Assembly (NCBI RefSeq): GCF_006345805.1
Contig: NC_043004.1
Span: forward strand, 73,532,001 to 73,596,000
Direction: 5' to 3'
DNA from: Octopus sinensis
Lineage: Eukaryota
Length of the DNA: 64,000 bases
Part shown: positions 3,675 to 64,000 of the stretch, in pieces
Layout of the letters: each line of letters begins with the position of its first letter
How positions within the stretch are numbered: position 1 is the stretch's first letter
Translations under genes and position numbers: made by a program
Notes under the pieces: model-generated
The model's database searches: none
Seen by the model: the letters and a program-made list of their open reading frames with translations, nothing else
What the model was told of the DNA's origin: nothing

Positions 3675-4130
3675 GTATATTAATAAAAATACATGAAAGT
3701 ACATGAAGTTTGTTAAAAAAAAGGGAGGATCATGTATATACCTCCTGGCTGTTGAGATTATAACACCTCGTTGTTAACAATGTTCCTTGTTTTTCCTTGT
3801 GGAGCATATACAAAAAGGTTTCTTTTGGTTCCTACTCTTGAGCAGCCAACATACAGTTGCCTATGCGAGAAGCAGGGCTCTTCCAAGAGAACACCAGCTA
3901 CAGAGAGGGTTTGACCCTGAGATTTGTTAATGGACATGGCAAAGCTGACACGAAAGGGGAATTGCAGTCTTCTGAATGTAAATGGAATTTCTGCTCCTGA
4001 TGGAGTAAGAGGAAATCTTGGAATAAAGACGTCATCACCTTTTCCACATCCAGAAAGAATGATCGCCTCGATAACGTGTGGCATCTTTTTCTTTATCACC
4101 AGTCGTGTTCCATTGCAAAGTCTTAGCTGT
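3565..4130 (-). mobile_element. Helitron 3' fragment (PIF1-type helicase C-terminus plus 3' end)
   Basis: LCNGTRL..RRLQFPFRVSFAMSINKSQGQTL..FSHRQLYVGCSRV motifs in ORF 3758-4399; terminal hairpin CCGGGCAACGCCGGG followed by CTAG|T at 3565-3568. Confidence 0.92.
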
Positions 4131-4274
4131 TCCAGGGAGGTAAGTAGTTCTGGATTTGGTGCAATTAGAGTAGATATAGATCTGTAATGGGAATGGTGTA
4201 TGGTATATATAGGGGTTAGCGGAATAATTGAAAGGTTAGTAGTGTTCTGTATTATGTTATGTGTTCTATTGAGT

Positions 4275-4945
4275 TGTGGAAGATCTCTTCTTTTCAATGA
4301 TTCTAATGTCTGGCCATTTGGTAATTGGATGCTTTCGCTGTTGACTACCTGTTCCCTTCTTATGACTAATATTGCACACTCATCTATGTTAAATTCCATG
4401 CCTGTATCTTTGCTGAAGATACAGTCAACATTAAGGGATCTATCTCTTTTTCATTCTTACTGAAAAAGCTTCAGATCATCCATGTAAAGTAAATAGTTAA
4501 ATTTTTCCTTACTGTTTCTGAACTGATACCCTGCCTTTGCTTTCATTAATACTAAATTGAGGTGGATCAAACATGAGACAATTTTCTCTTTTGATATTAA
4601 CTTTCCCTAAGAGTGTGTCATCTGAGTAGAGATCTTCATGCTAAAGCTAATTAATTCTCTTCTGCTGTCTACTATACTGAATTTATCCAAACTTTCTATT
4701 ATCCATGAGTGTGGGATCACGTCATAGGTTTTCTTATAATCTATCCACGCTATTGTCAGGGTTTTTTCTAGCTTTTACTTCATTTAGAACTGCTTTGTCT
4801 GTGTATAATAGATCATGCGTTTCTCTAGCCTTCTTCCTGCAACTTTTTTGTTCTTCTGGCAGTAAATTCTTGTTGTCAGGGTAATCGTAAATGTTTTCTG
4901 AAAGCATTCCTGTTAACAACTTCCAAACTATGTGATTAGTCAATA
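4275..4945 (-). pseudogene. Non-LTR reverse transcriptase fragment, R4/Dong-like, frameshifted
   Basis: WKLLTGMLSENIY..LLPEEQKSCRKKARETHDLLYTDK, PHSWII, NYLLYMDDLKLF, GMEFNIDECAILVI. Confidence 0.85.
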
Positions 4946-35155: not shown

Positions 35156-35240
35156 TCGTTTAGTTCCTTATTATCTAACACACTTTGTCAAATAATATGG
35201 CAGTAACAGCGAATGACTCCTTAGACACAACAATGTATGC

Positions 35241-35271
<31 letters not shown>

Positions 35272-35369
35272 GTCACCATGATAGATCGTTAGTTCCTTAT
35301 TATTTAACACACTTTGTCAAATAATATGGCAGTAAAAGCGAATGACTCCTTAGACACAACAATGTATGC

Positions 35370-35415
<46 letters not shown>

Positions 35416-35562
35416 ACCATGATAGATCGTTAGTTCCTTATTATTTAACACACTTTGTCAAATAATATGGCAGTAAAAGAGAATGACTCCCTAGACACAA
35501 CAATGTATGCATGTATATATATATATATTTATATATATATAGTCACCATGATAGATCGTTAG
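35156..35562 (+). repeat. Triple tandem duplication (~130-140 bp) spanning an element insertion junction
   Basis: Units start at 35156, 35286 and 35427: TCGTTAGTTCCTTATT..GTATGCATG(TA)nGTCACCATGATAGA. Confidence 0.92.
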
Positions 35563-42049: not shown

Positions 42050-44150
42050 ATTTGTGATCTAAGCAAAATAAAGGAGCATCAATTTCTTTGGAGACCAAGA
42101 TCAGTATTTTAGATCGTCTTCGTAAGGACGAAAATGCAGCGGCCTTGGGTAGAGCTTTCTGCCTGAACAAAGCTACGATAAGAACGTTCAAAAGGAAGGA
42201 TGCTGCCATTAGAAGATCTCTAGCTTCTGGAACAAAATTATCTGCCAAATCGTCGTCATATGCAAGAGACATGATTCAAGAAAAAAAAAATGGAGAAAAC
42301 TTTAATAATAAGGATAGAAGAAAACGATCAAAAAAGGATGCCAGTAGATAGTAAAACCATAAAACAGACGAATGTGCATTCATCTGTCGAGTGATAAAAA
42401 GAAGATTGGATTTGCTGCGAGTACGAGATGGCTTAGAAAACTCCTCGAAAGATACGCACTGCATAATATAAAAATGAGAGGCGAAATTACATGGGCAGAT
42501 TAAACTGCTGCTGAAGAATTTCTTCCAAAATTAGCCAAAATGATTGTAGAAGGCGGTTACATTTCAGACCAAGTTTTCAACACAAATGAAACTGGTCTCT
42601 TTTGGAAAAAAATGCCAAACAGAACGTATATAACAAAATCAGAGAAAAGTGCCAGTGGTTTTAAGGCAGCTAAAGACCGTGTAACTTTCTTGTTACGTAG
42701 CAACGTTTCAGGAAATTGTTTTATTTTTTTAACCGAATTAATCGATCAGTTCGTCTGCGTACAATGAAAGGCGTAGACATAAGTAAATTACCAGTTCTTT
42801 GGAGAATCAATGAAAAAAATCATGGATGACAGCAGAAATATTTACTGAGTGGTGTAACAACTGCTTCATTTCTGAAGTAAGAAGATAAATGGAAGATAAA
42901 GGTCTTGAGTTTAAAGTCCTTTTACTTATAGACAATGCACTCGTTCATCCAGATTTGGAACGCCCGAATGTAAAAGTCGTATTCTTGCCCCCTAATATAA
43001 CATAGCTGATTCAAACGCTTAATCACGGGGTATCATTTCAACCTTCAAATCGTATTATATCCAGTGAGCATTTGAATATATTATAGATGAACTAGTAAAA
43101 GATGGTATACTTTCAATCATTCAAGCATGGAAAGAATTTATTATAATTAATTGTGTTAAAAATGCTGCCCTAGTTTTATCCAAAGTAAAGCCATCCACCC
43201 TAAATGCCTGCTGGAGATCACTTTGGCCAGAATGTGTAGAGCCTAAAACTCTCGAATATAATATGCTGAGACCCCCTTTGGTTATGGTTGACCGTGAGAT
43301 TGCACCTAGAAAGTTACCCTCCCAGACACAAAACCGGGCAAGGTTGTTTATGGAAGACTAGCAATCACTCATGAATACCGACCTCCCCTCTCCACGCCAC
43401 CAGTGTTATCCAAGGGAAAGGCAAAGGGGCCGATACAGCTTGACACCTGTGACGTTGTAACTCATTTCTACTGCTGAGTGAACTGGAGCAACACGAAATA
43501 AAGTGTCTTGCTCAAGAACAGAATACGCAGCCCGGTTCGAGATTCAAAGTCACAACCTCACGATCGTAAGCTCGACGCTCTAACCACTGAGCCATGCGCC
43601 TTCACCGAATCTAATATAAATATGAACAAATTACTTTCTGATATCATCACTTTGTCACATCAGATTGGCAGAGAAGGTCTTTCAAGAATTAACAATTGAC
43701 GAAGCTCCTACTGAAGAACAAATTATAGAGAGTATTTCAGAAACTGTATATGATTCCACGGGTGTTTATAGTAGTGATGATGAAGAAGTTGTTCCACTAT
43801 CTGCGAGTACAATTCTAGAAGGCCTCCAAAGAGCCAGTGAGCTTGGAAACCATTTTCTTACAAATGACAACAATGTTGAACGAGCTGTACAATTCCAAAG
43901 TGATTTGAAAATGATTATGGCACGTTATGAAGAATCATATACAGAACTAACAAAAACAAAATCACAGCATCTGATAACCGAATTCGTATTCAAAACCAGT
44001 GAAACAAAAGAAACACTAGATTCTAATTTTATTTCAAGATACACATGAAGATATATCGCCTTTAAATATTTCCAGTGACCAGAGTGATTTTGCGTCACCG
44101 AAAAACCAACAGAAAGCGGGCACGTTTACTGCCTAGTAGTGACACTGAAT
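42050..44150 (+). pseudogene. pogo/Tigger (CENP-B/TIGD-like) DDE transposase, decayed
   Basis: HTH segment ETKISILDRLRK..LNKATIRTF; VFNTNETGLFWKKMPNRTYI..GFKAAKDRVT; KVLLLIDNALVHP..VFLPPNIT; multiple stops and frameshifts. Confidence 0.9.
43265..43605 (-). mobile_element. tRNA-derived SINE inserted into the pogo transposase, with 12-bp TSD
   Basis: Minus head GTGAAGGCGCATGGCTCAGTGGTTAGAGCG; TSD CGAATATAATAT (43253-43264) / CGAATCTAATAT (43606-43617), 1 mismatch. Confidence 0.8.
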
Positions 44151-44768
44151 GACTGAATGATTGCGTTATATATATATAAGAAACGAAAAATAATAATAAT
44201 AATAAAGCAGAATGCTAAACTGAAATCAAATTTCAATATAAATGGGTGTAAGAAAGATTAAAAAAGGAAATCAAACCGGCTTTGATCGCAAGGCAAATTT
44301 TCAAGATGAGGAAGGGGGAAAAAATTTATAATGTTTTTTCAAAAAAATAATAAAAATATACAAAAATTAATAAATAAGTATACCAATACATCATAATGTC
44401 TTTAAGCTTTTAAAGTTCAATATTATTCCATGGAAAAACTTTTTTGGCGGATTAGGATGTATGTATTATAGTGTAGTGTTTTGTTCGAGAAGGTTGGATG
44501 TTTATGTGTCAAAACAGGAAATGGGGTAGGAGTTATCCAGTTCCTGTGAATAAAGGGAAACAATTCTGTGGATTTTATACTCTTTAATTAGAATGCTGAA
44601 TTTTTTGCCAACCAAGATGCTTATATCTATTTTTTGTTAAACAGTTTGCTAGAAAAAGGATTTCAGTTTAGCATTCTGCCTTATTATTATTTTTTTCCTT
44701 TCCCATCATTTCCCCACGTGCGGTTAACACAACCCCACCATTTACTGACTTACATATATATATATATA

Positions 44769-45355
44769 AAATTGAATAAGGGTAGAAATTTATATTAATC
44801 AATTAAAACCAGTGGCTTAGCATATTAAAAAAATCCGAAGATTAAAATATTTTTTACATACAAAATTTAAAGGACTGACCACTAAAAGTGGACGGTCAAT
44901 ATGCTAGATATAGACGTCAAAATCGCTATTTTCCACGAAGAATGTGTTCTCAAGAAAAAACTCAGCACAAAACCAAAGCGTAAAAAATAAGCAAGACAAA
45001 TGAAAAAATGAAGGCATTTGAAAGATAAACATAAATATAATTTGTTGAACTCTATGCATACGGGACTCCAGCCAAGCGTTATGTATCTAGTTCTGGAAAT
45101 TATGTTTGTATACGACAGACTATGCTGATGAGCTTCCAGATTTTCGCGTATGCATATACGTGAATATTAACAAGTGAAACTGATCGGTACATAGGTAATC
45201 GTTTTTATTTCGTATATTTTCATTTGTCTTGCTTATTTTTAATGCTTTGGTTTTGTGCTGAGTTTTTTCTTGAGAACACATTCTTCGTAGAAAATAGCGA
45301 TTTTGACGTCTATATCTAGCATATTGACCGTCCACTTTTAGTGGTCAGTCCTTTA

Positions 45356-45361
<6 letters not shown>
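44769..45361 (+). mobile_element. Penelope-like non-autonomous element with inverted 145-bp arms and an internal HHR
   Basis: Arms 44862-45006 and 45217-45361 (about 3 mismatches by eye); both outer ends abut (TA)n. Confidence 0.75.
45120..45194 (+). ncRNA. Type I hammerhead ribozyme, intact core
   Basis: CUAUG-CUGAUGA-GCUU(long loop with UUCGCGUAU/AUACGUGAA hairpin)AAGU-GAA-ACUGAUCGGU-A-CAUAG; predicted cleavage after GUA at 45189. Confidence 0.8.
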
Positions 45362-45404
<43 letters not shown>

Positions 45405-47599: not shown

Positions 47600-49640
47600 A
47601 GGCGTAGGAGTGGCTGTGTGGTAAGTAGCTTGCTTGAAAATTGTGTTGTTCCTGTCAAGGAGTACCTAGAAGAGAATTGGAATTATTTTTTAACTGTTTT
47701 ACAATTGTTTTAAATTTTGGCCTGCAGTACCAAGTGGCCTTTGCTGTGTTTTGAACTGTTGCTCTCTCTTCTTCTGTCTTTAATTTTAAAAAAAACTTTA
47801 TTGAACTGTTAATTTTTTTCTCTCTCCTTCCTTTTGTTTGGACTTTTTCCTCTTCCTTCTTTTTCTTTGATTATTTTATATTTTAACAACTGTATTTTTG
47901 GATTCTTTTAAAAAAAACATGGCAAATAACAATGAAAAGTTGGTGGAGTGGGAAATTACACCACCCAATAAATGGTTAAAAGAATTTGAAAGTAAGACGG
48001 TGATTTTGAGGACCTACTCTAGGACCCTCGACGCCATTGCCGTTTTCAGAAAGGATATAATCGAAAGAGAGCTGGCAGAATTTAAGCCAGCGATTAAGTT
48101 TATCACTCGTGGGATCAAATACGCAACCGTGTGGTTGCTGTTTGACTCACTAGAAGTGGCCTGTGAATTTGCAAGTCAGCCCCTGGAGTGTAATGAAATT
48201 TTGTTTCTTCCCACTTATTGTGGGAAGAGTTTGACGAAGGCTTGTGTTTGCGACTTGCCAATAGAAGTTGAGCCCCAGTGGATAGGAGATACTATCCGCC
48301 GGGGTCTGGGTGGTAGTAGCACCAAGCTCCTCAGCGTAAATATTCTGCCTGCGGCTGACTGGGAGAGGTCAAAAGCTGTTTTGACCATATGAACCCAGTC
48401 AGCCGAAAGTCTGGTATTTCCAGACATTTTGAGAATGGCCGGTGATTCTTGAGGGATGCCCCCACCAAGTGTCATCGTTGCTTGAAACCTGGCCATATAA
48501 AAAAGAACTGTTCTTAAGGGCAAAGCAAAATCCCGGAGCGGTTGACGGAGACCTCTGTAGAGGAGGGAATGAAGGCGGCCGAAGAGACGGAGGTCTCATC
48601 AAAGAAGAGCCACAAAAGGAAGGAGGAGAGCAATAATGGGTGCTCACCAAAGGATTCTGGGAATGAGGGAGGGGAGGCAAATCTCCAGGTCACGGAGAAA
48701 CAGCACCCTCCCCCAGTCGAGAAGAAGAAAAAAGAAGAAGAGGAGGAGAAACGGGACATTGCCGGCAGTCGGAAACATGACGCCGGAATGTTACGGAGCC
48801 TCGTCGGTTGTGCCACCGGAGCGGGGGAGACACCATTAGCAGGAGTTGTGCCGCCAGCGGTAGAATTAACCAACCCGGACCCGATGGACCAGAAACTGTT
48901 GGTCTTCTTATATAGAGGCGGAGAGGTGGGAAAGATAGTGAAAGAACACTACGAGGGAATACCTTTGGTCTTCACACAGGACCCCGAATGGCCTCCGCAG
49001 ATAGCTGTGGAGGTCATAACGTTGCGCCTGTTTATGATGCTGGGCGGACTAAAAGAAGAATATCGCTCGTGGCCGGGTAACGCCAACTCGGACCCCGCCG
49101 TGATTTTAAACGAAGCATTGGTTATGGCGGAGTACACGGACACAAGCGATTATGAGGTGAAAAATTGACAAGAGGTTGAAAAGCCTCAGTGTTATAAAGT
49201 GTAAGAGGCCCAGCGCCTCATTTGTAAATGGACTAGTGCTGATTGTATATTGAATATTTTTGTAAGTTAATATTGGTAATGGACTATTAAGTCCAAAAAC
49301 TGTAAAAACTGTTGTGAGAGGTTCAATACATCGCTTTGTTTATTCTGTTTTAAAAAAAATAACAATGTTTTAGAGAAGAAAATCGGCGGGCGTTTTTGCT
49401 TTCTCTCATCAATATCATACTTATTTCATCATTCACCTCATCAATGTACATGTCCAACCCGCAGCTACGCTTTGTAATGCCTCTATGGCAAATTTTTATG
49501 AAGTAAAGTAGCTTGCTTACGAACTACATGGTCCCACTGCGTGGCACCTTGGCCAAATGTCTTCTACTATAGCCTCAGGCCAACCAAAGCCTTGTGAGTG
49601 GATTTGGTAGACGGAAACTGAAAGAAGCCCGTCGTATATA
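47600..49640 (+). mobile_element. SINE family B head split by a 1.87-kb insertion
   Basis: Head 47600-47635 resumes at 49506 as AAGTAGCTTGCTTACGAACTACATGG..GAAGCCCGTCG. Confidence 0.88.
47636..49505 (+). mobile_element. ORF1-only (HAL1-like / Tx1-L1 gag-like) non-autonomous retroelement, ORF disrupted
   Basis: Perfect 13-bp TSD AAGTAGCTTGCTT (47623-47635, 49506-49518); ORF from ATG 47919 with stops and frameshifts; CCHC knuckle CHRCLKPGHIKKNC at 48470-48511; charged tail to 49168; no EN or RT. Confidence 0.75.
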
Positions 49641-58260: not shown

Positions 58261-58536
58261 TATATATAAAAATTTAGCAATAAGGACAACTACTTAATAA
58301 GAAAACTTAACAAGAAATTGTCAGGTAGATAGCGTAAAAACCTCATAAGAGAAAAATTTCGAAAATAATTATTTCTTATTGAACATATTAATTTATATAT
58401 AGAGGGCATTATACATACATGCCAGGAGGCATTCTACATACACGCCAAACGCTAAGAGGGACAATCAGTCTTTCTACCAAAAATATTACTAATCCTACCG
58501 AATGCAATTTTTCAAAGAAAGACATTTAAAATATAT

Positions 58537-58584
58537 AGACCTGTATCACAGTGATTTCATACTTACGTAATCATCAGCAGGCCT
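58537..58584 (-). ncRNA. Minimal type I hammerhead ribozyme (unit 1 of the array)
   Basis: AGGCCUG-CUGAUGA-U-UAC(GUAA)GUA-U-GAA-AUCACUGUGAU-A-CAGGUCU. Confidence 0.75.
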
Positions 58585-60443
58585 GAATATCTATAAATAA
58601 ACAACGACCCTGCTTCGCTTAAGTCGATCAGCTAACTGATCAACATCAACGAAGCACAGGGTGAATTTATATATACATTCCGGATGAATGGCAAACTTTT
58701 ACGAATTGCATTTCGGGAGAGGAAAAGTTTTTTCGGAATAAAAATTTAGCAATTAAGGACAACTACTTAATAAGGAAAACTTAACAAGAAATTGTCAGTA
58801 GATAGCGTAAAAACCTCATAAGAGAAAAAATTTGAAAATAATTATTTCTTATTGAACATATAATTTTATATATAGAGGGCATTATACATACATGCCAGGA
58901 GGCATTCTACATACACGCCATACGCTAAGAGGGACAATCAGTCATTTCTACCAAAAATATTACTATCCTACCGAATGCAATTTTTCAAAGAAAGACATTT
59001 AAAAGATATATAGACCTGTATCACAGTGATTTCATACTTACGTAATCATCAGCAGCCTGAATATACTATAAATAAACAACGACCCTGCTTCGCTTAAGTC
59101 GATCAGCTACTGATCAACATCAACGAAGCACATGGGTGAATTTTATATACTATAGCCGGATGAATGGCAAACTTTTACGAATTGCATTTCGGGAGAGGAA
59201 AAGTTTTTTCGGAATAAAAATTTAGCAATTAAGGACAACTACTTAATAAGGAAAACTTAACAAGAAATTGTCAGGTAGATAGCGTAAAAACCTCATAAGA
59301 GAAAAAATTTCGAAAATAATTATTTCTTATTGAACATATTAATTTATATATAGAGGGCCTTATACATACATGCCAGGAGGCATTCTACATACACGCCATA
59401 CGCTAAGAGGGACAATCATCATTCTACCCAAATCTAAATACCAAATCTACTACCGAATGCAATTTTTCAAAGAAAGACATTTAAAAATATATAGACCTGT
59501 ATCACAGTGATTTCATACTTACGTAATCATCAGCAGGCCTGAATTACTATAAATAAACAACGACCCTGCTTCGCTTAAGTCGATCAGCTAACTGATCAAC
59601 ATCAACGAAGCACATGGGTGAATTTATATATACTATATCCGGATGAATGGCAAACTTTTACGAATTGCATTTCGGGAGAGGAAAGTTTTTTCGGAATAAA
59701 AATTTAGCAATTAAGGACAACTACTTAATAAGGAAAACTTAACAAGAAATTTCAGGTAGATAGCGTAAAAACCTCATAAGAGAACAATTTCGAAAATAAT
59801 TATTCTTATTGAACATATTAATTTATATATAGAGGGCATTATACATACATGCCAGAGGCATTCTACATACACGCATACGCTAAGAGGGACAATCAGTCAT
59901 TTCTACCAAAAATATTACTAATCCTACCGAATGCAATTTTTCAAAGAAAGACATTAAAAATATATAGACCTGTATCACAGTGATTTCATACTTACGTAAT
60001 CATCAGCAGGCCTGAATATACTAAAATAAACCGACCCTGCTTCGCTTAAGTCGATCAGCTAACTGATCAACATCAACGAAGCACATGGGTGAATTTATAT
60101 ATACTATATCCGGATGAATGGCAAACTTTTACGAATTGCATTTCGGGAGAGGAAAAGTTTTTTCGGAATAAAAATTTAGCAATTAAGGACAACTACTTAA
60201 TAAGGAAAACTTAACAAGAAATTGTCAGGTAGATAGCGTAAAAACCTCATAAGAGAAAAAATTTCGAAAATAATTATTTCTTATTGAACATATTAATTTA
60301 TATATAGAGGGCATTATACATACATGCCAGGAGGCATTCTACATACACGCCATACGCTAAGAGGGACAATCAGTCATTTCTACCAAAAATATTACTAATC
60401 CTACCGAATGCAATTTTTCAAAGAAAGACATTTAAAAATATAT

Positions 60444-60491
60444 AGACCTGTATCACAGTGATTTCATACTTACGTAATCATCAGCAGGCCT
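60444..60491 (-). ncRNA. Minimal type I hammerhead ribozyme (unit 5, representative; one per unit)
   Basis: Same sequence as unit 1; predicted cleavage after AUA, between plus coordinates 60451 and 60450. Confidence 0.75.
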
Positions 60492-63400
60492 GAATATACT
60501 ATAAATAAACAACGACCCTGCTTCGCTTAAGTCGATCAGCTAACTGATCAACATCAACGAAGCACATGGGTGAATTTATATATACTATATCCGGATGAAT
60601 GGCAAACTTTTACGAATTGCATTTCGGGAGAGGAAAAGTTTTTTCGGAATAAAAATTTAGCAATTAAGGACAACTACTTAATAAGGAAAACTTAACAAGA
60701 AATTGTCAGGTAGATAGCGTAAAACCTCATAAGAGAAACATTTCGAAAATAATTATTTCTTATTGAACATATTAATTTATATATAGAGGGCATTATACAT
60801 ACATGCCAGGAGGCATTCTACATACACGCCAAACGCTAAGAGGGACAATCAGTCATTTCTACCAAAATATTACTAATCCTACCGAATGCAATTTTTCAAA
60901 GAAAGACATTTAAAATATATAGACCTGTATCACAGTGATTTCATACTTACGTAATCATCAGCAGGCCTGAATACTATAAATAAACAACGACCCTGCTTCG
61001 CTTAAGTCGATCATCTAACTGATCAACATCACGAAGCACATGGGTGAATTTATATATACTATATCCGGATGAATGGCAAACTTTTACGAATTGCATTTCG
61101 GGAGAGGAAAAGTTTTTTCGGAATAAAAATTTAGCAATTAAGGACAACTACTTAATAAGGAAAACTTAACAAGAAATTGTCAGGTAGATAGCGCAAAACC
61201 TCATAAGAGAAAAATTTCGAAAATAATTATTTCTTATTGAACATATTAATTTATATATAGAGGGCATTATACATACATGCCAGGAGGCATTCTACATACA
61301 CGCCATACGCTAAGAGGGACAATCAGTCATTTCTACCAAAAATATTACTAATCCTACCGAATGCAATTTTTCAAAGAAAGACATTTAAAAATATATAGAC
61401 CTGTATCACAGTGATTTCATACTTACGTAATCATCAGCAGGCCTGAATATACTATAAATAAACAACGACCCTGCTTCGCTTAAGTCGATCAGCTAACTGA
61501 TCAACATCAACGAAGCACAGGGTGAATTTATATATACTATATCCGGATGAATGGCAAACTTTTACGAATGCATTTCGGGAGAGGAAAAGTTTTTTCGGAT
61601 AAAATTTAGCAATTAGGACAACTACTTAATAAGGAAAACTTAACAAGAAATTGTCAGGTAGATAGCGTAAAAACCTCATAAGAGAAAAAATTTCGAAAAT
61701 AATTATTTCTTATTGAACATATTAATTTAATATAGAGGGCATTATACATACATGCCAGGAGGCATTCTACATACACGCCATACGCTAAGAGGGACAATCA
61801 GTCATTTCTACCAAAATACTAATCCTACCGAATGCAATTTTTCAAAGAAAGACATTTAAAAATATATAGACCTGTATCACAGTGATTTCATACTTACGTA
61901 ATCATCAGCAGGCCTGAATATACTATAAATAACAACGACCCTGCTTCGCTTAAGTCGATCAGCTAACTGATCAACATCAACGAAGCACATGGGTGAATTT
62001 ATATATACTATATCCGGATGATGGCAAACTTTTACGAATTGCATTTCGGGAGAGGAAAAGTTTTTTCGGAATAAAAATTTAGCAATTAAGGACAACTACT
62101 TAATAAGGAAAACTTAACAAGAATTGTCAGGTAGATAGCGTAAAAACCTCATAAGAGAAACAATTTCGAAAATAATTATTTCTTATTGAACATATTAATT
62201 TATATATATAGAGGGCATTATACATACATGCCAGGAGGCATTCTACATACACGCCATACGCTAAGAGGGACAATCAGTCATTTCTACCAAAAATATTACT
62301 AATCCTACCGAATGCAATTTTTCAAAGAAAGACATTTAAAAATATATAGACCTGTATCACAGTGATTTCATACTTACGTAATCATCAGCAGCCTGAATAT
62401 ACTATAAATAAACAACGACCCTGCTTCGCTTAAGTCGATCAGCTAACTGATCAACATCAACGAAGCACATGGGTGAATTTATATATACTATATCCGGATG
62501 AATGGCAAACTTTTACGAATTGCATTTCGGGAGAGGAAAAGTTTTTTCGGAATAAAAATTTAGCAATTAAGGACAACTACTTAATAAGAAAACTTAACAA
62601 GAAATGTCAGGTAGATAGCGTAAAAACCTCATAAGAGAAAAAATTTCGAAAATAATTATTTCTTATTGAACATATTAATTTATATATAGAGGGCATTATA
62701 CATACATGCCAGGAGGCATTCTACATACACGCCATACGCTAAGAGGGACAATCAGTCATTTCTACCAAAAATTACTAATCCTACCGAATGCAATTTTTCA
62801 AAGAAAGACATTTAAAAATATATAGACCTGTATCACAGTGATTTCATACTACGTAATCATCAGCAGGCCTGAATATACTATAAATAAACAACGACCCTGC
62901 TTCGCTTAAGTCGATCAGCTAACTGATCAACATCAACGAAGCACATGGTGAATTTATATATACTATCCGGATGAATGGCAAACTTTTACGAATTGCATTT
63001 CGGGAGAGGAAAAGTTTTTTCGGAATAAAAATTTAGCAATTAAGGACAACTACTTAATAAGGAAAACTTAACAAGAAATTGTCAGGTAGATAGCGTAAAA
63101 ACCTCATAAGAGAAAAAATTTCGAAAATAATATTTCTTATTGAACATATTAATTTATATATAGAGGGCATTATACATACATGCCAGGAGGCATTCTACAT
63201 ACACGCCATACGCTAAGAGGGACAATCAGTCATTTCTACCAAACAAAAATATTACTAATCCTACCGAATGCAATTTTTCAAAGAAAGACATTTAAAATAT
63301 ATAGACCTGTATCACAGTGATTTCATACTTACGTAATCATCAGCAGGCCTGAATATACTATAAATAAACAACGACCCTGCTTCGCTTAAGTCGATCAGCT

Positions 63401-64000
63401 AACTGATCAACATCAACGAAGCACATGGGTGAATTTATATATACTATATCCGGATGAATGGCAAACTTTTACGAATTGCATTTCGGGAGAGGAAAAGTTT
63501 TTTCGGAATAAAAATTTAGCAATTAAGGACAACTACTTATAAGGAAAACTTAACAAGAAATTGTCAGGTAGATAGCGTAATAACCTCATAAGAGAAAAAA
63601 TTTCGAAAATAATTATTTCTTATTGAACACTATTATTTATATATAGAGGGCATTATACATACATGCCAGGAGGCATTCTACATACACGCCATACGCTAAG
63701 AGGGACAATCAGTCATTTCTACCAAAAAATATACTAATCCTACCGAATGCAATTTTCAAAGAAAGACATTTAAAAATATATAGACCTGTATCACAGTGAT
63801 TTCATACTTACGTAATCATCAGCAGGCCTGAATATACTATAAATAAACAACGACCCTGCTTCGCTTAAGTCGATCAGCTAACTGATCAACATCAACGAAG
63901 CACATGGGTGAATTTATATATACTATATCCGGATGAATGGCAAACTTTTACGAATTGCATTTCGGGAGAGGAAAAGTTTTTTCGGAATAAAAATTAGCAA

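What the first reader, a model, noticed from the sequence alone, without database searches (positions are those of the whole stretch)
44769..45361. Intact-core hammerhead sitting in the loop of a 145-bp near-perfect inverted repeat
Seen: HHR at 45120-45194 with stem I CUAUG/CAUAG, CUGAUGA, stem II GCUU/AAGU extended by a long hairpin, GAAA, quasi-palindromic stem III ACUGAUCGGU and a GUA site. It lies between arms 44862-45006 and 45217-45361, and both ends are in (TA)n. Established: Penelope-like insertions often have an inverted partial terminal repeat and carry HHRs. Its sequence is unrelated to the array unit, so it is a second family and the best candidate for an active ribozyme here. The arms would also form long dsRNA.
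Basis: partly seen in the sequence, partly recalled or inferred. Interest (0 to 1): 0.75.

Follow-up and report, generated by a model that had tools for sequence, protein, structure and literature searches.

The report
Two-armed hammerhead retrozyme insertion
This is one worn copy of a non-coding repeat, found at roughly three thousand sites in this animal genome, that carries a hammerhead-ribozyme motif and sits in TA microsatellites as two back-to-back arms with two different fixed end points, a footprint likely left by Penelope-type retrotransposon enzymes; this particular copy is predicted to cut itself poorly.

Summary
In detail: a type I hammerhead motif (45120-45194) lies between 145-bp arms with 3 mismatches, in (TA)n. 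It is one insertion of a 535-nt non-coding repeat (about 3,000 candidate sites). The two arms are 5'-truncated copies of one unit joined head to head; one ends at unit position ~535, the other at ~445. That one-long/one-short pairing holds in 67 of 78 double-ended insertions (2 short/short, 0 long/long, 9 unclear), matching the inverted copy and one-sided tail of Penelope-like elements. The hammerhead is in the loop only because one arm ran further. Core, palindromic stem III and a 42-51-nt stem II are kept with different letters in two sister families; one of them is young and forms arrays of up to ~17 units, a typical non-LTR retrozyme. 'Best candidate for an active ribozyme' is not supported: this copy has a private stem II mismatch, a predicted misfold and no second hammerhead, whereas the array in the window has 12 in tandem. 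No protein-coding partner was found; cleavage, circles and expression are untested. The scan noted the same footprint on other DNA before. New member of a known kind.

The parts
44754..44768 (.). left (TA)n target microsatellite
   Evidence: sequence
44769..45009 (-). long arm: unit positions 295-535, inverted; its outer end is the family's long 3' end (~u535)
   Evidence: 93% to the reference unit L009:1416-1950
44769..44861 (-). 93-nt tail present on this arm only (between the two family end points)
45005..45009 (.). head-to-head junction of the two arms; the two alignments overlap by 5 nt
45005..45361 (+). short arm: unit positions 86-442; its outer end is the family's short 3' end (~u440-450)
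   Evidence: 94%
44862..45006 (.). left half of the 145-bp inverted repeat
45217..45361 (.). right half of the 145-bp inverted repeat
45120..45194 (+). type I hammerhead motif; predicted cut after 45189 (GUA)
45132..45175 (+). long stem II: 4-5 bp, a 3x3 internal loop (CAG/UAA), then a 12-bp hairpin; private G-to-C change at 45136
45179..45188 (+). palindromic stem III, predicted dimer interface
45110..45204 (+). distal extension of stem I (45110-15 with 45199-204) beyond a 4x4 internal loop
   Evidence: helix 1 (87% of cells paired)
45326..45351 (+). hairpin just 5' of the short end point, also predicted in the sister families
45362..45401 (.). right (TA)n target microsatellite
   Evidence: sequence

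Best explanation
The stretch is one truncated, head-to-head insertion of a 535-nt non-coding hammerhead repeat (a non-LTR retrozyme), likely pasted into (TA)n by a Penelope-type reverse transcriptase/endonuclease supplied in trans. Shown: the 535-nt circularly permuted unit, two fixed 3' end points about 90 nt apart, ragged 5' ends, TA flanks, the one-long/one-short pairing, conserved hammerhead helices, no ORF. Inferred from known systems: tandem source copies are transcribed; neighbouring hammerheads pair through palindromic stem III and cut out unit-length RNAs, which are likely ligated into circles; a Penelope protein dimer nicks both strands of the microsatellite and primes one cDNA at each fixed site; the cDNAs run through the cut site, sometimes for more than one lap, stop at variable places and are joined by short homology. 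The loop is simply the part copied by one arm only. This copy is a dead-end product whose ribozyme is predicted to be weak.
For: Unit and ends: (of 262 arms, 118 end at u434-466, 111 at u526-535 or a few letters beyond, 33 elsewhere; 118 of 132 regular ends abut TA-rich sequence). Pairing: 47 of 51 and 20 of 27 double-ended insertions are long+short; 2 short/short, 0 long/long, 9 unclear; p 4e-18 against 50:50 for the 69 clear ones. In 34 of 57 clean cases neither arm is contained in the other, the window copy among them, so two separate priming events are needed. Arms of one insertion differ by 6.1% against 11.9% between insertions, 66 of 70 comparisons below the median. 96 of 105 arms that reach the cut site read through it; 23 arms exceed one unit, longest 949 nt. 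Hammerhead: 44 copies, 91% of cells paired vs 24-49% in slid controls, 25 two-sided changes vs 9.4 shuffled; core intact in 33 of 41, palindrome complete in 36 of 41 with changing letters; sister families B (65% identical) and C (47%) keep stems I, II, the UAA-side internal loop and a palindromic stem III with different letters. Family C has the same 535-nt period, 99% identical copies, arrays up to ~17 units and the same end rule. Longest ORF from ATG on the ribozyme strand 35 aa. Circular folds are more stable than shuffles (z -1.9 to -5.9, 4 units). Literature: inverted copy, one-sided tail and microsatellite bias (PMC8557442); both-strand cleavage of AT-rich DNA, two internal RT start sites bracketing the tail, predicted dimer (PMC11167929); circles from tandem type I hammerheads (PMC7229834). 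GIY-YIG elements are abundant in this genome (5029 candidates).
Against: No protein-coding partner shares sequence with the unit in 50 endonuclease-bearing loci. No family-A array longer than 1.8 units among the 40 best candidates, so the source of its RNA is not identified. Read-through of the cut site fits an uncleaved linear template as well as a circle, and PMC11167929 found cleavage unnecessary for insertion in vitro. The tail is ~90 nt, not the 30-40 nt described. The 10.1-11.1 pair is U.U in 22 of 44 copies. Copies are related, so pair counts overstate independent events. A-C homology is clear for one A copy (score 95 vs shuffle maximum 56) but not for another (54 vs 55); it rests partly on B-C (125 vs 52).
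Confidence: 0.8

Rival explanations
1. The copies are 5'-truncated 3' ends (pseudo-LTRs) of an ordinary protein-coding Penelope-like element, not a separate non-coding element.
For: Same footprint as coding elements (PMC8557442); only 50 of several thousand endonuclease loci were inspected.
Against: Upstream of unit position 1 the sequence returns to position 535 in the long copies; among 75 single-orientation insertions only one pair shares its 5' flank, and that pair shares both flanks; sister family C forms ORF-less arrays.
Confidence: 0.08
2. Same element and enzyme, but the template is a linear, mostly uncleaved tandem transcript and the hammerhead is dispensable for insertion (no circle).
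For: 96 of 105 arms cross the cut site; family C has long arrays that could give such transcripts; PAc inserts without cleavage in vitro (PMC11167929); 8 of 9 Xenopus dimers did not cleave (10.64898/2026.07.22.740005).
Against: Helices and core are kept across families only 47-65% identical; family A has arms above one unit without long arrays in the best hits; circles are shown for comparable repeats (PMC7229834). This is a variant of the best explanation rather than a different identity.
Confidence: 0.3
3. The inverted repeat arose by fold-back of one cDNA on itself, or the element is a DNA transposon (MITE/foldback) with terminal inverted repeats.
For: 19 of 57 short arms are contained in the long arm and 11 of 57 pairs stop within 15 nt of each other.
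Against: 34 of 57, including this copy, are not nested; junctions vary from copy to copy; one end always carries an unpaired tail; 31 of 82 insertions have a single orientation; partial tandems occur.
Confidence: 0.04
4. This locus is a host-co-opted, active ribozyme inside a functional long dsRNA hairpin.
For: Core intact; arms 98% complementary and predicted to pair.
Against: Private stem II mismatch, predicted misfold, no partner motif; the layout is the family's routine by-product; no gene was recognised nearby.
Confidence: 0.04

Closest known systems
Metazoan non-LTR retrozymes (PMC7229834, parts 2-4 of 6 read; bioRxiv 10.64898/2026.07.22.740005, parts 1-3 of 5 read)
   Same: Few-hundred-nt non-coding unit, type I hammerhead with short palindromic stem III, low GC, head-to-tail partial tandems, dispersed monomers, co-existence with Penelope-like elements; U.U at the base of stem II as in axolotl HHR_Amex2.
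   Different: 535 nt (invertebrate units described at 170-450 nt; vertebrate consensus 51-972 nt); stem II spacer of 42-51 nt instead of a 4-8 bp stem; family A survives mostly as sub-unit fragments; inserted as two head-to-head arms in (TA)n, which the parts read do not describe; circles not tested here.
Insertion units of endonuclease-bearing Penelope-like elements (Penelope/Poseidon, Neptune, Nematis, Naiad; PMC8557442 and PMC8969392, passages read)
   Same: 5' truncation, partial tandems, inverted 5'-truncated copy, tail at one end only, microsatellite bias, hammerhead in the repeat.
   Different: No RT or GIY-YIG ORF; tail ~90 nt instead of 30-40; no coding partner identified.
Poseidon element PAc of Anolis in vitro (PMC11167929, parts 1-2 of 4 read)
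   Same: Two internal start sites downstream of the hammerhead bracket the tail; AT-rich targets; both strands extended; hairpins near the start sites.
   Different: There the start sites lie in the ORF; the paper does not report that the two strands use different start sites (it saw no difference between strands), whereas the genomic footprint here pairs one of each.
Minimal hammerheads of metazoan Penelope-like elements (PMC4209133, parts 1-2 of 4 read)
   Same: Short stem I, palindromic stem III, predicted dimer activity, weak as monomer.
   Different: Helix II there 6-8 bp; here 4-5 bp plus an internal loop plus a ~12-bp hairpin.

Membership tests
type I hammerhead ribozyme | CUGANGA, GAAA and NUH around three helices, open end in stem I | tested here: met
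   core intact here and in 33 of 41 copies
type I hammerhead ribozyme | helices kept by compensatory change | tested here: met
   44 related copies; families B and C with different stem letters
type I hammerhead ribozyme | match to a curated Rfam model | tested here: not met
   no hammerhead family reported; the 44-nt stem II spacer is the likely reason (inference); the 12 array motifs are also missed
type I hammerhead ribozyme | self-cleavage | not testable with these tools
   folding predicts a misfold for this copy; 5' ends near the cut are ambiguous
non-LTR retrozyme | short non-coding unit without ORF, LTR, PBS or PPT | tested here: met
   for unit and ORFs; PBS/PPT not searched separately
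non-LTR retrozyme | head-to-tail tandem units each with a hammerhead | tested here: inconclusive
   family A: partial tandems up to 1.8 units, some with two motifs; family C: arrays up to ~17 units; the window copy itself has one motif
non-LTR retrozyme | expressed as linear and circular RNA | not testable with these tools
   only contigs of runs not on record as RNA were offered
non-LTR retrozyme | large target-site duplications when present | tested here: inconclusive
   ends lie in (TA)n, duplication cannot be read
Penelope-like element insertion | 5' truncation, partial tandem, inverted copy, one-sided tail, microsatellite bias | tested here: met
autonomous Penelope-like element | RT plus GIY-YIG ORF within the element | tested here: not met
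   no homology to ends of 50 endonuclease loci

The most novel reading that the evidence does not exclude
Families A, B and C form an old clan of ~535-nt ribozyme circles with a long-stem-II hammerhead that standard descriptors miss; a Penelope RT/endonuclease dimer copies one circle from both nicked DNA strands, and its two subunits are obliged to start at two different fixed sites, which explains inverted pseudo-LTRs and one-sided tails in general. The young family C would let this be reconstituted.
Probability: 0.4. Interest if true: 0.62.

Novelty: new member of a known kind. Interest (0 to 1): 0.38.

Why it matters
That Penelope-type enzymes mobilise animal retrozymes is proposed from co-occurrence and sequence kinship, not shown, and how the inverted copy and one-sided tail arise is listed as open. 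A protein-free repeat that carries the whole Penelope footprint, with a near-strict one-long/one-short rule and a 99%-identical sister family, gives exact predictions (two start sites, cut site, circle size) for an in vitro test. The long stem II suggests that descriptor searches undercount such ribozymes. The single locus given is itself ordinary.

Tried and rejected
Rfam at gathering and at E<=10: no hammerhead. An apparent endonuclease C-terminal remnant on the inverted arm was dropped: it is on the strand opposite to the RNA and tblastn with a Neptune-type ORF found nothing in the unit. Partner search: 30 + 20 GIY-YIG loci gave no shared ends; the hits in L333 and L349 have two-arm layouts beside the coding element, and L349 is separated from it by microsatellite; only 150 of 5029 candidates were scored and Pfam favours Neptune-like domains, so other clades are barely sampled. 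In vivo cleavage footprint: 9 of 105 arms end at u267-271 (2.6 expected, nominal p 0.0015), but the window was chosen after seeing data, only 2 end exactly at the cut, 7 keep 2-4 nt upstream of it, and windows at u93-97 and u67-71 are as strong: not counted as support. Expression: no RNA holder listed; laying contigs shows family sequence in runs of three coded organisms but cannot show transcription, strand, editing or circles. Within-insertion similarity does not separate one template molecule from a contemporaneous subfamily (duplicated loci L261 and L284 count several times). Literature searches: octopus + hammerhead ribozyme, retrozyme + cephalopod, extended stem II (0 papers), Penelope twin priming, tail/inverted/non-autonomous found no description of this family or of a counted long/short rule; a recent octopus repeat paper has no 'ribozyme' or 'retrozyme' in its main text (PMC13282606, passages). 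Repeat libraries (Repbase, Dfam) and all supplements were not seen and may hold the family. Look-ups of earlier notes by sequence and by relatives were empty.

Full report
Observation. The arms 44862-45006 and 45217-45361 differ at 3 of 145 positions, and both ends touch (TA)n. A strict motif scan gives 1 match in the window against 0.015 per local shuffle (200 shuffles). Rfam reports no hammerhead.

What it belongs to. A search of the own genome (2.72 Gb) gave 3067 candidate sites, 40 scored. Mapping 30 of them on a natural copy (L009:1416-1950) defines a 535-nt unit that continues from position 535 back to position 1. The window copy is positions 535 to 295 inverted (44769-45009) followed by 86 to 442 forward (45005-45361). 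The genome looks octopus-like in size and microsatellite load; that is my inference, not a tool result.

Insertion footprint. To avoid picking by score I took two samples by exact motif, in contig order. Sample 1: the first 100 of 291 matches of a 26-mer, merged into 82 insertions. Sample 2: the first 100 of 343 matches of a 30-mer, of which 70 loci were new. Of 262 arms, 118 end at u434-466, 111 at u526-535 or a few letters beyond, 33 elsewhere; in sample 1, 118 of 132 regular ends abut TA-rich sequence. Double-ended insertions: 47 long+short, 1 short+short, 3 unclear of 51; 20, 1 and 6 of 27; none long+long. Single-orientation insertions split 16 short, 15 long, so both ends are equally available and the pairing is not chance (p 4e-18 for 67 of 69). 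In 34 of 57 clean cases neither arm is contained in the other, which excludes simple fold-back for them and for the window copy. The two arms of one insertion are closer to each other (6.1%) than to other insertions (11.9%), 66 of 70 comparisons (some loci duplicated); 2.3% for the window copy. The hammerhead lies in one arm only in 18 of 57, in both in 4, in none in 35: being in the loop is a by-product. 23 arms exceed one unit (longest 949 nt) and 96 of 105 arms that reach the cut site run through it; no array above 1.8 units was among the 40 best candidates.

The ribozyme. Of 52 hammerhead regions found, 8 truncated or interrupted ones were left out; on the 44 aligned 91.2% of cells pair against 24-49% in slid controls, with 25 two-sided changes against 9.4 shuffled (related copies inflate this). 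In 41 ungapped rows the core is intact in 33 and the stem III palindrome complete in 36, with changing letters. A loose end in laid contigs led to family B (467 exact matches; 65% identical), and a profile of A and B led to family C (47% identical to A). Both keep stem I and stem II with different letters, a 3x3 internal loop with UAA on its 3' side (UGA in one of three B copies), a 42- or 51-nt spacer and a palindromic stem III. Family C has the same 535-nt period, copies 99% alike, arrays of up to about 17 units, 749 exact motif matches and the same end rule in 7 of 8 double-ended insertions of a motif-picked set. A-C homology is clear for one A copy and borderline for another. Hairpins are predicted near both end points in all three families (11 sequences, 4 of 23 pairs with two-sided change).

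This copy. Position 45136 is C against G in 41 of 44 copies; the first pair of stem II is G.U; the best fold with a free core is 7.4 kcal/mol above the minimum, third largest of 41; in the whole-element fold stem II has pair probability 0.06-0.17 and stem III 0.0, because the core pairs with stem III. There is no second motif in the insertion. The 474-bp array at 58266-64000 has 12 intact motifs in tandem on the minus strand and is unrelated to this unit. The claim that this is the best candidate for an active ribozyme is therefore not supported.

Mechanism. Shown: unit, ends, pairing rule, conservation, lack of ORF. Inferred: dimer cleavage through the palindrome (PMC4209133, parts 1-2 read; PMC7229834, parts 2-4 read), ligation to circles, and double priming by a Penelope protein, which in vitro cleaves both strands of AT-rich DNA, starts at two internal sites that bracket the tail and is predicted to be a dimer (PMC11167929, parts 1-2 read). 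That paper saw no strand difference in start site and no need for cleavage, which leaves the linear-template rival open. Inverted copies, a tail often at one end only and microsatellite bias are described for Penelope-like elements (PMC8557442, passages; PMC8969392, passages); kinship of retrozymes with pseudo-LTRs is reported for Xenopus (10.64898/2026.07.22.740005, parts 1-3 read).

What failed. No coding partner in 50 endonuclease loci. The pile-up of 9 arm ends at u267-271 is ambiguous. Expression, editing and circles could not be tested. Supplements and repeat libraries were not seen.

Earlier notes. The pairing rule was counted before I looked at earlier notes, several of which report the same footprint for other families in this and other genomes; they are unchecked AI notes and are not used as evidence.

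Verdict. Real feature, new member of a known kind (non-LTR retrozyme with a Penelope insertion footprint), with a long stem II as a minor variant. Interest 0.38; the young family C is the better object for follow-up.

Noticed in passing
L349:5757-6860 (G000:C6) and G000:C1:95539573-95548586: Family C: very young 535-nt relative with a 51-nt stem II hammerhead, two-arm insertions and arrays up to ~17 units; strongly folded as a circle (-148 kcal/mol vs about -110 in 5 shuffles). Best target for tests.
   Followed up: partly
L301-L330: Family B: older sister family, ~65% identical, period about 540 nt in L318, same hammerhead layout with different stems, TA-flanked.
   Followed up: partly
window 58266-64000: 474-bp array, 12 units, each with a minus-strand type I hammerhead (U.U at the base of stem II, palindromic stem III); starts at a (TA)n tract; runs off the window.
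   Followed up: partly
unit positions 267-271 (L139, L195, L199, L209, L230, L261, L271, L286, L287): Nine arm 5' ends cluster at or 2-4 nt upstream of the predicted cut; could be stalling at stem III or run-off at the cut; unexplained.
   Followed up: partly
L349:5530-5625; L331 minus strand near 1086; L345:1877-1960: Other unrelated TA-flanked repeats also carry type I hammerhead motifs with 50-61-nt stem II spacers, so long stem II may be common in this genome.
   Followed up: no
L068, L083, L342, L349:4940-5040: Ends of long-ORF Neptune-like elements carry a degenerate hammerhead-like motif (UUGAUAA...GAAA CAUG UA) about 70 nt before a (TA)n flank.
   Followed up: no
L130:1916-2300: A family A insertion sits next to a two-arm insertion of a distant relative of the window's array family: stacking in one microsatellite.
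   Followed up: no
L218 and L278; L261; L284: Insertions duplicated with their flanks (two chromosomes, or in tandem).
   Followed up: partly
window 3758-4450 (-), 43626-44048 (+), 47871-49168 (+): ORF fragments that from memory resemble a Helitron helicase end, a pogo/Tigger transposase end and a LINE ORF1; Pfam gave no confident match, so the labels are recalled, not tested.
   Followed up: partly
window 35160-35562: Short tandem of a 129-141-nt unit with internal (TA)n.
   Followed up: no
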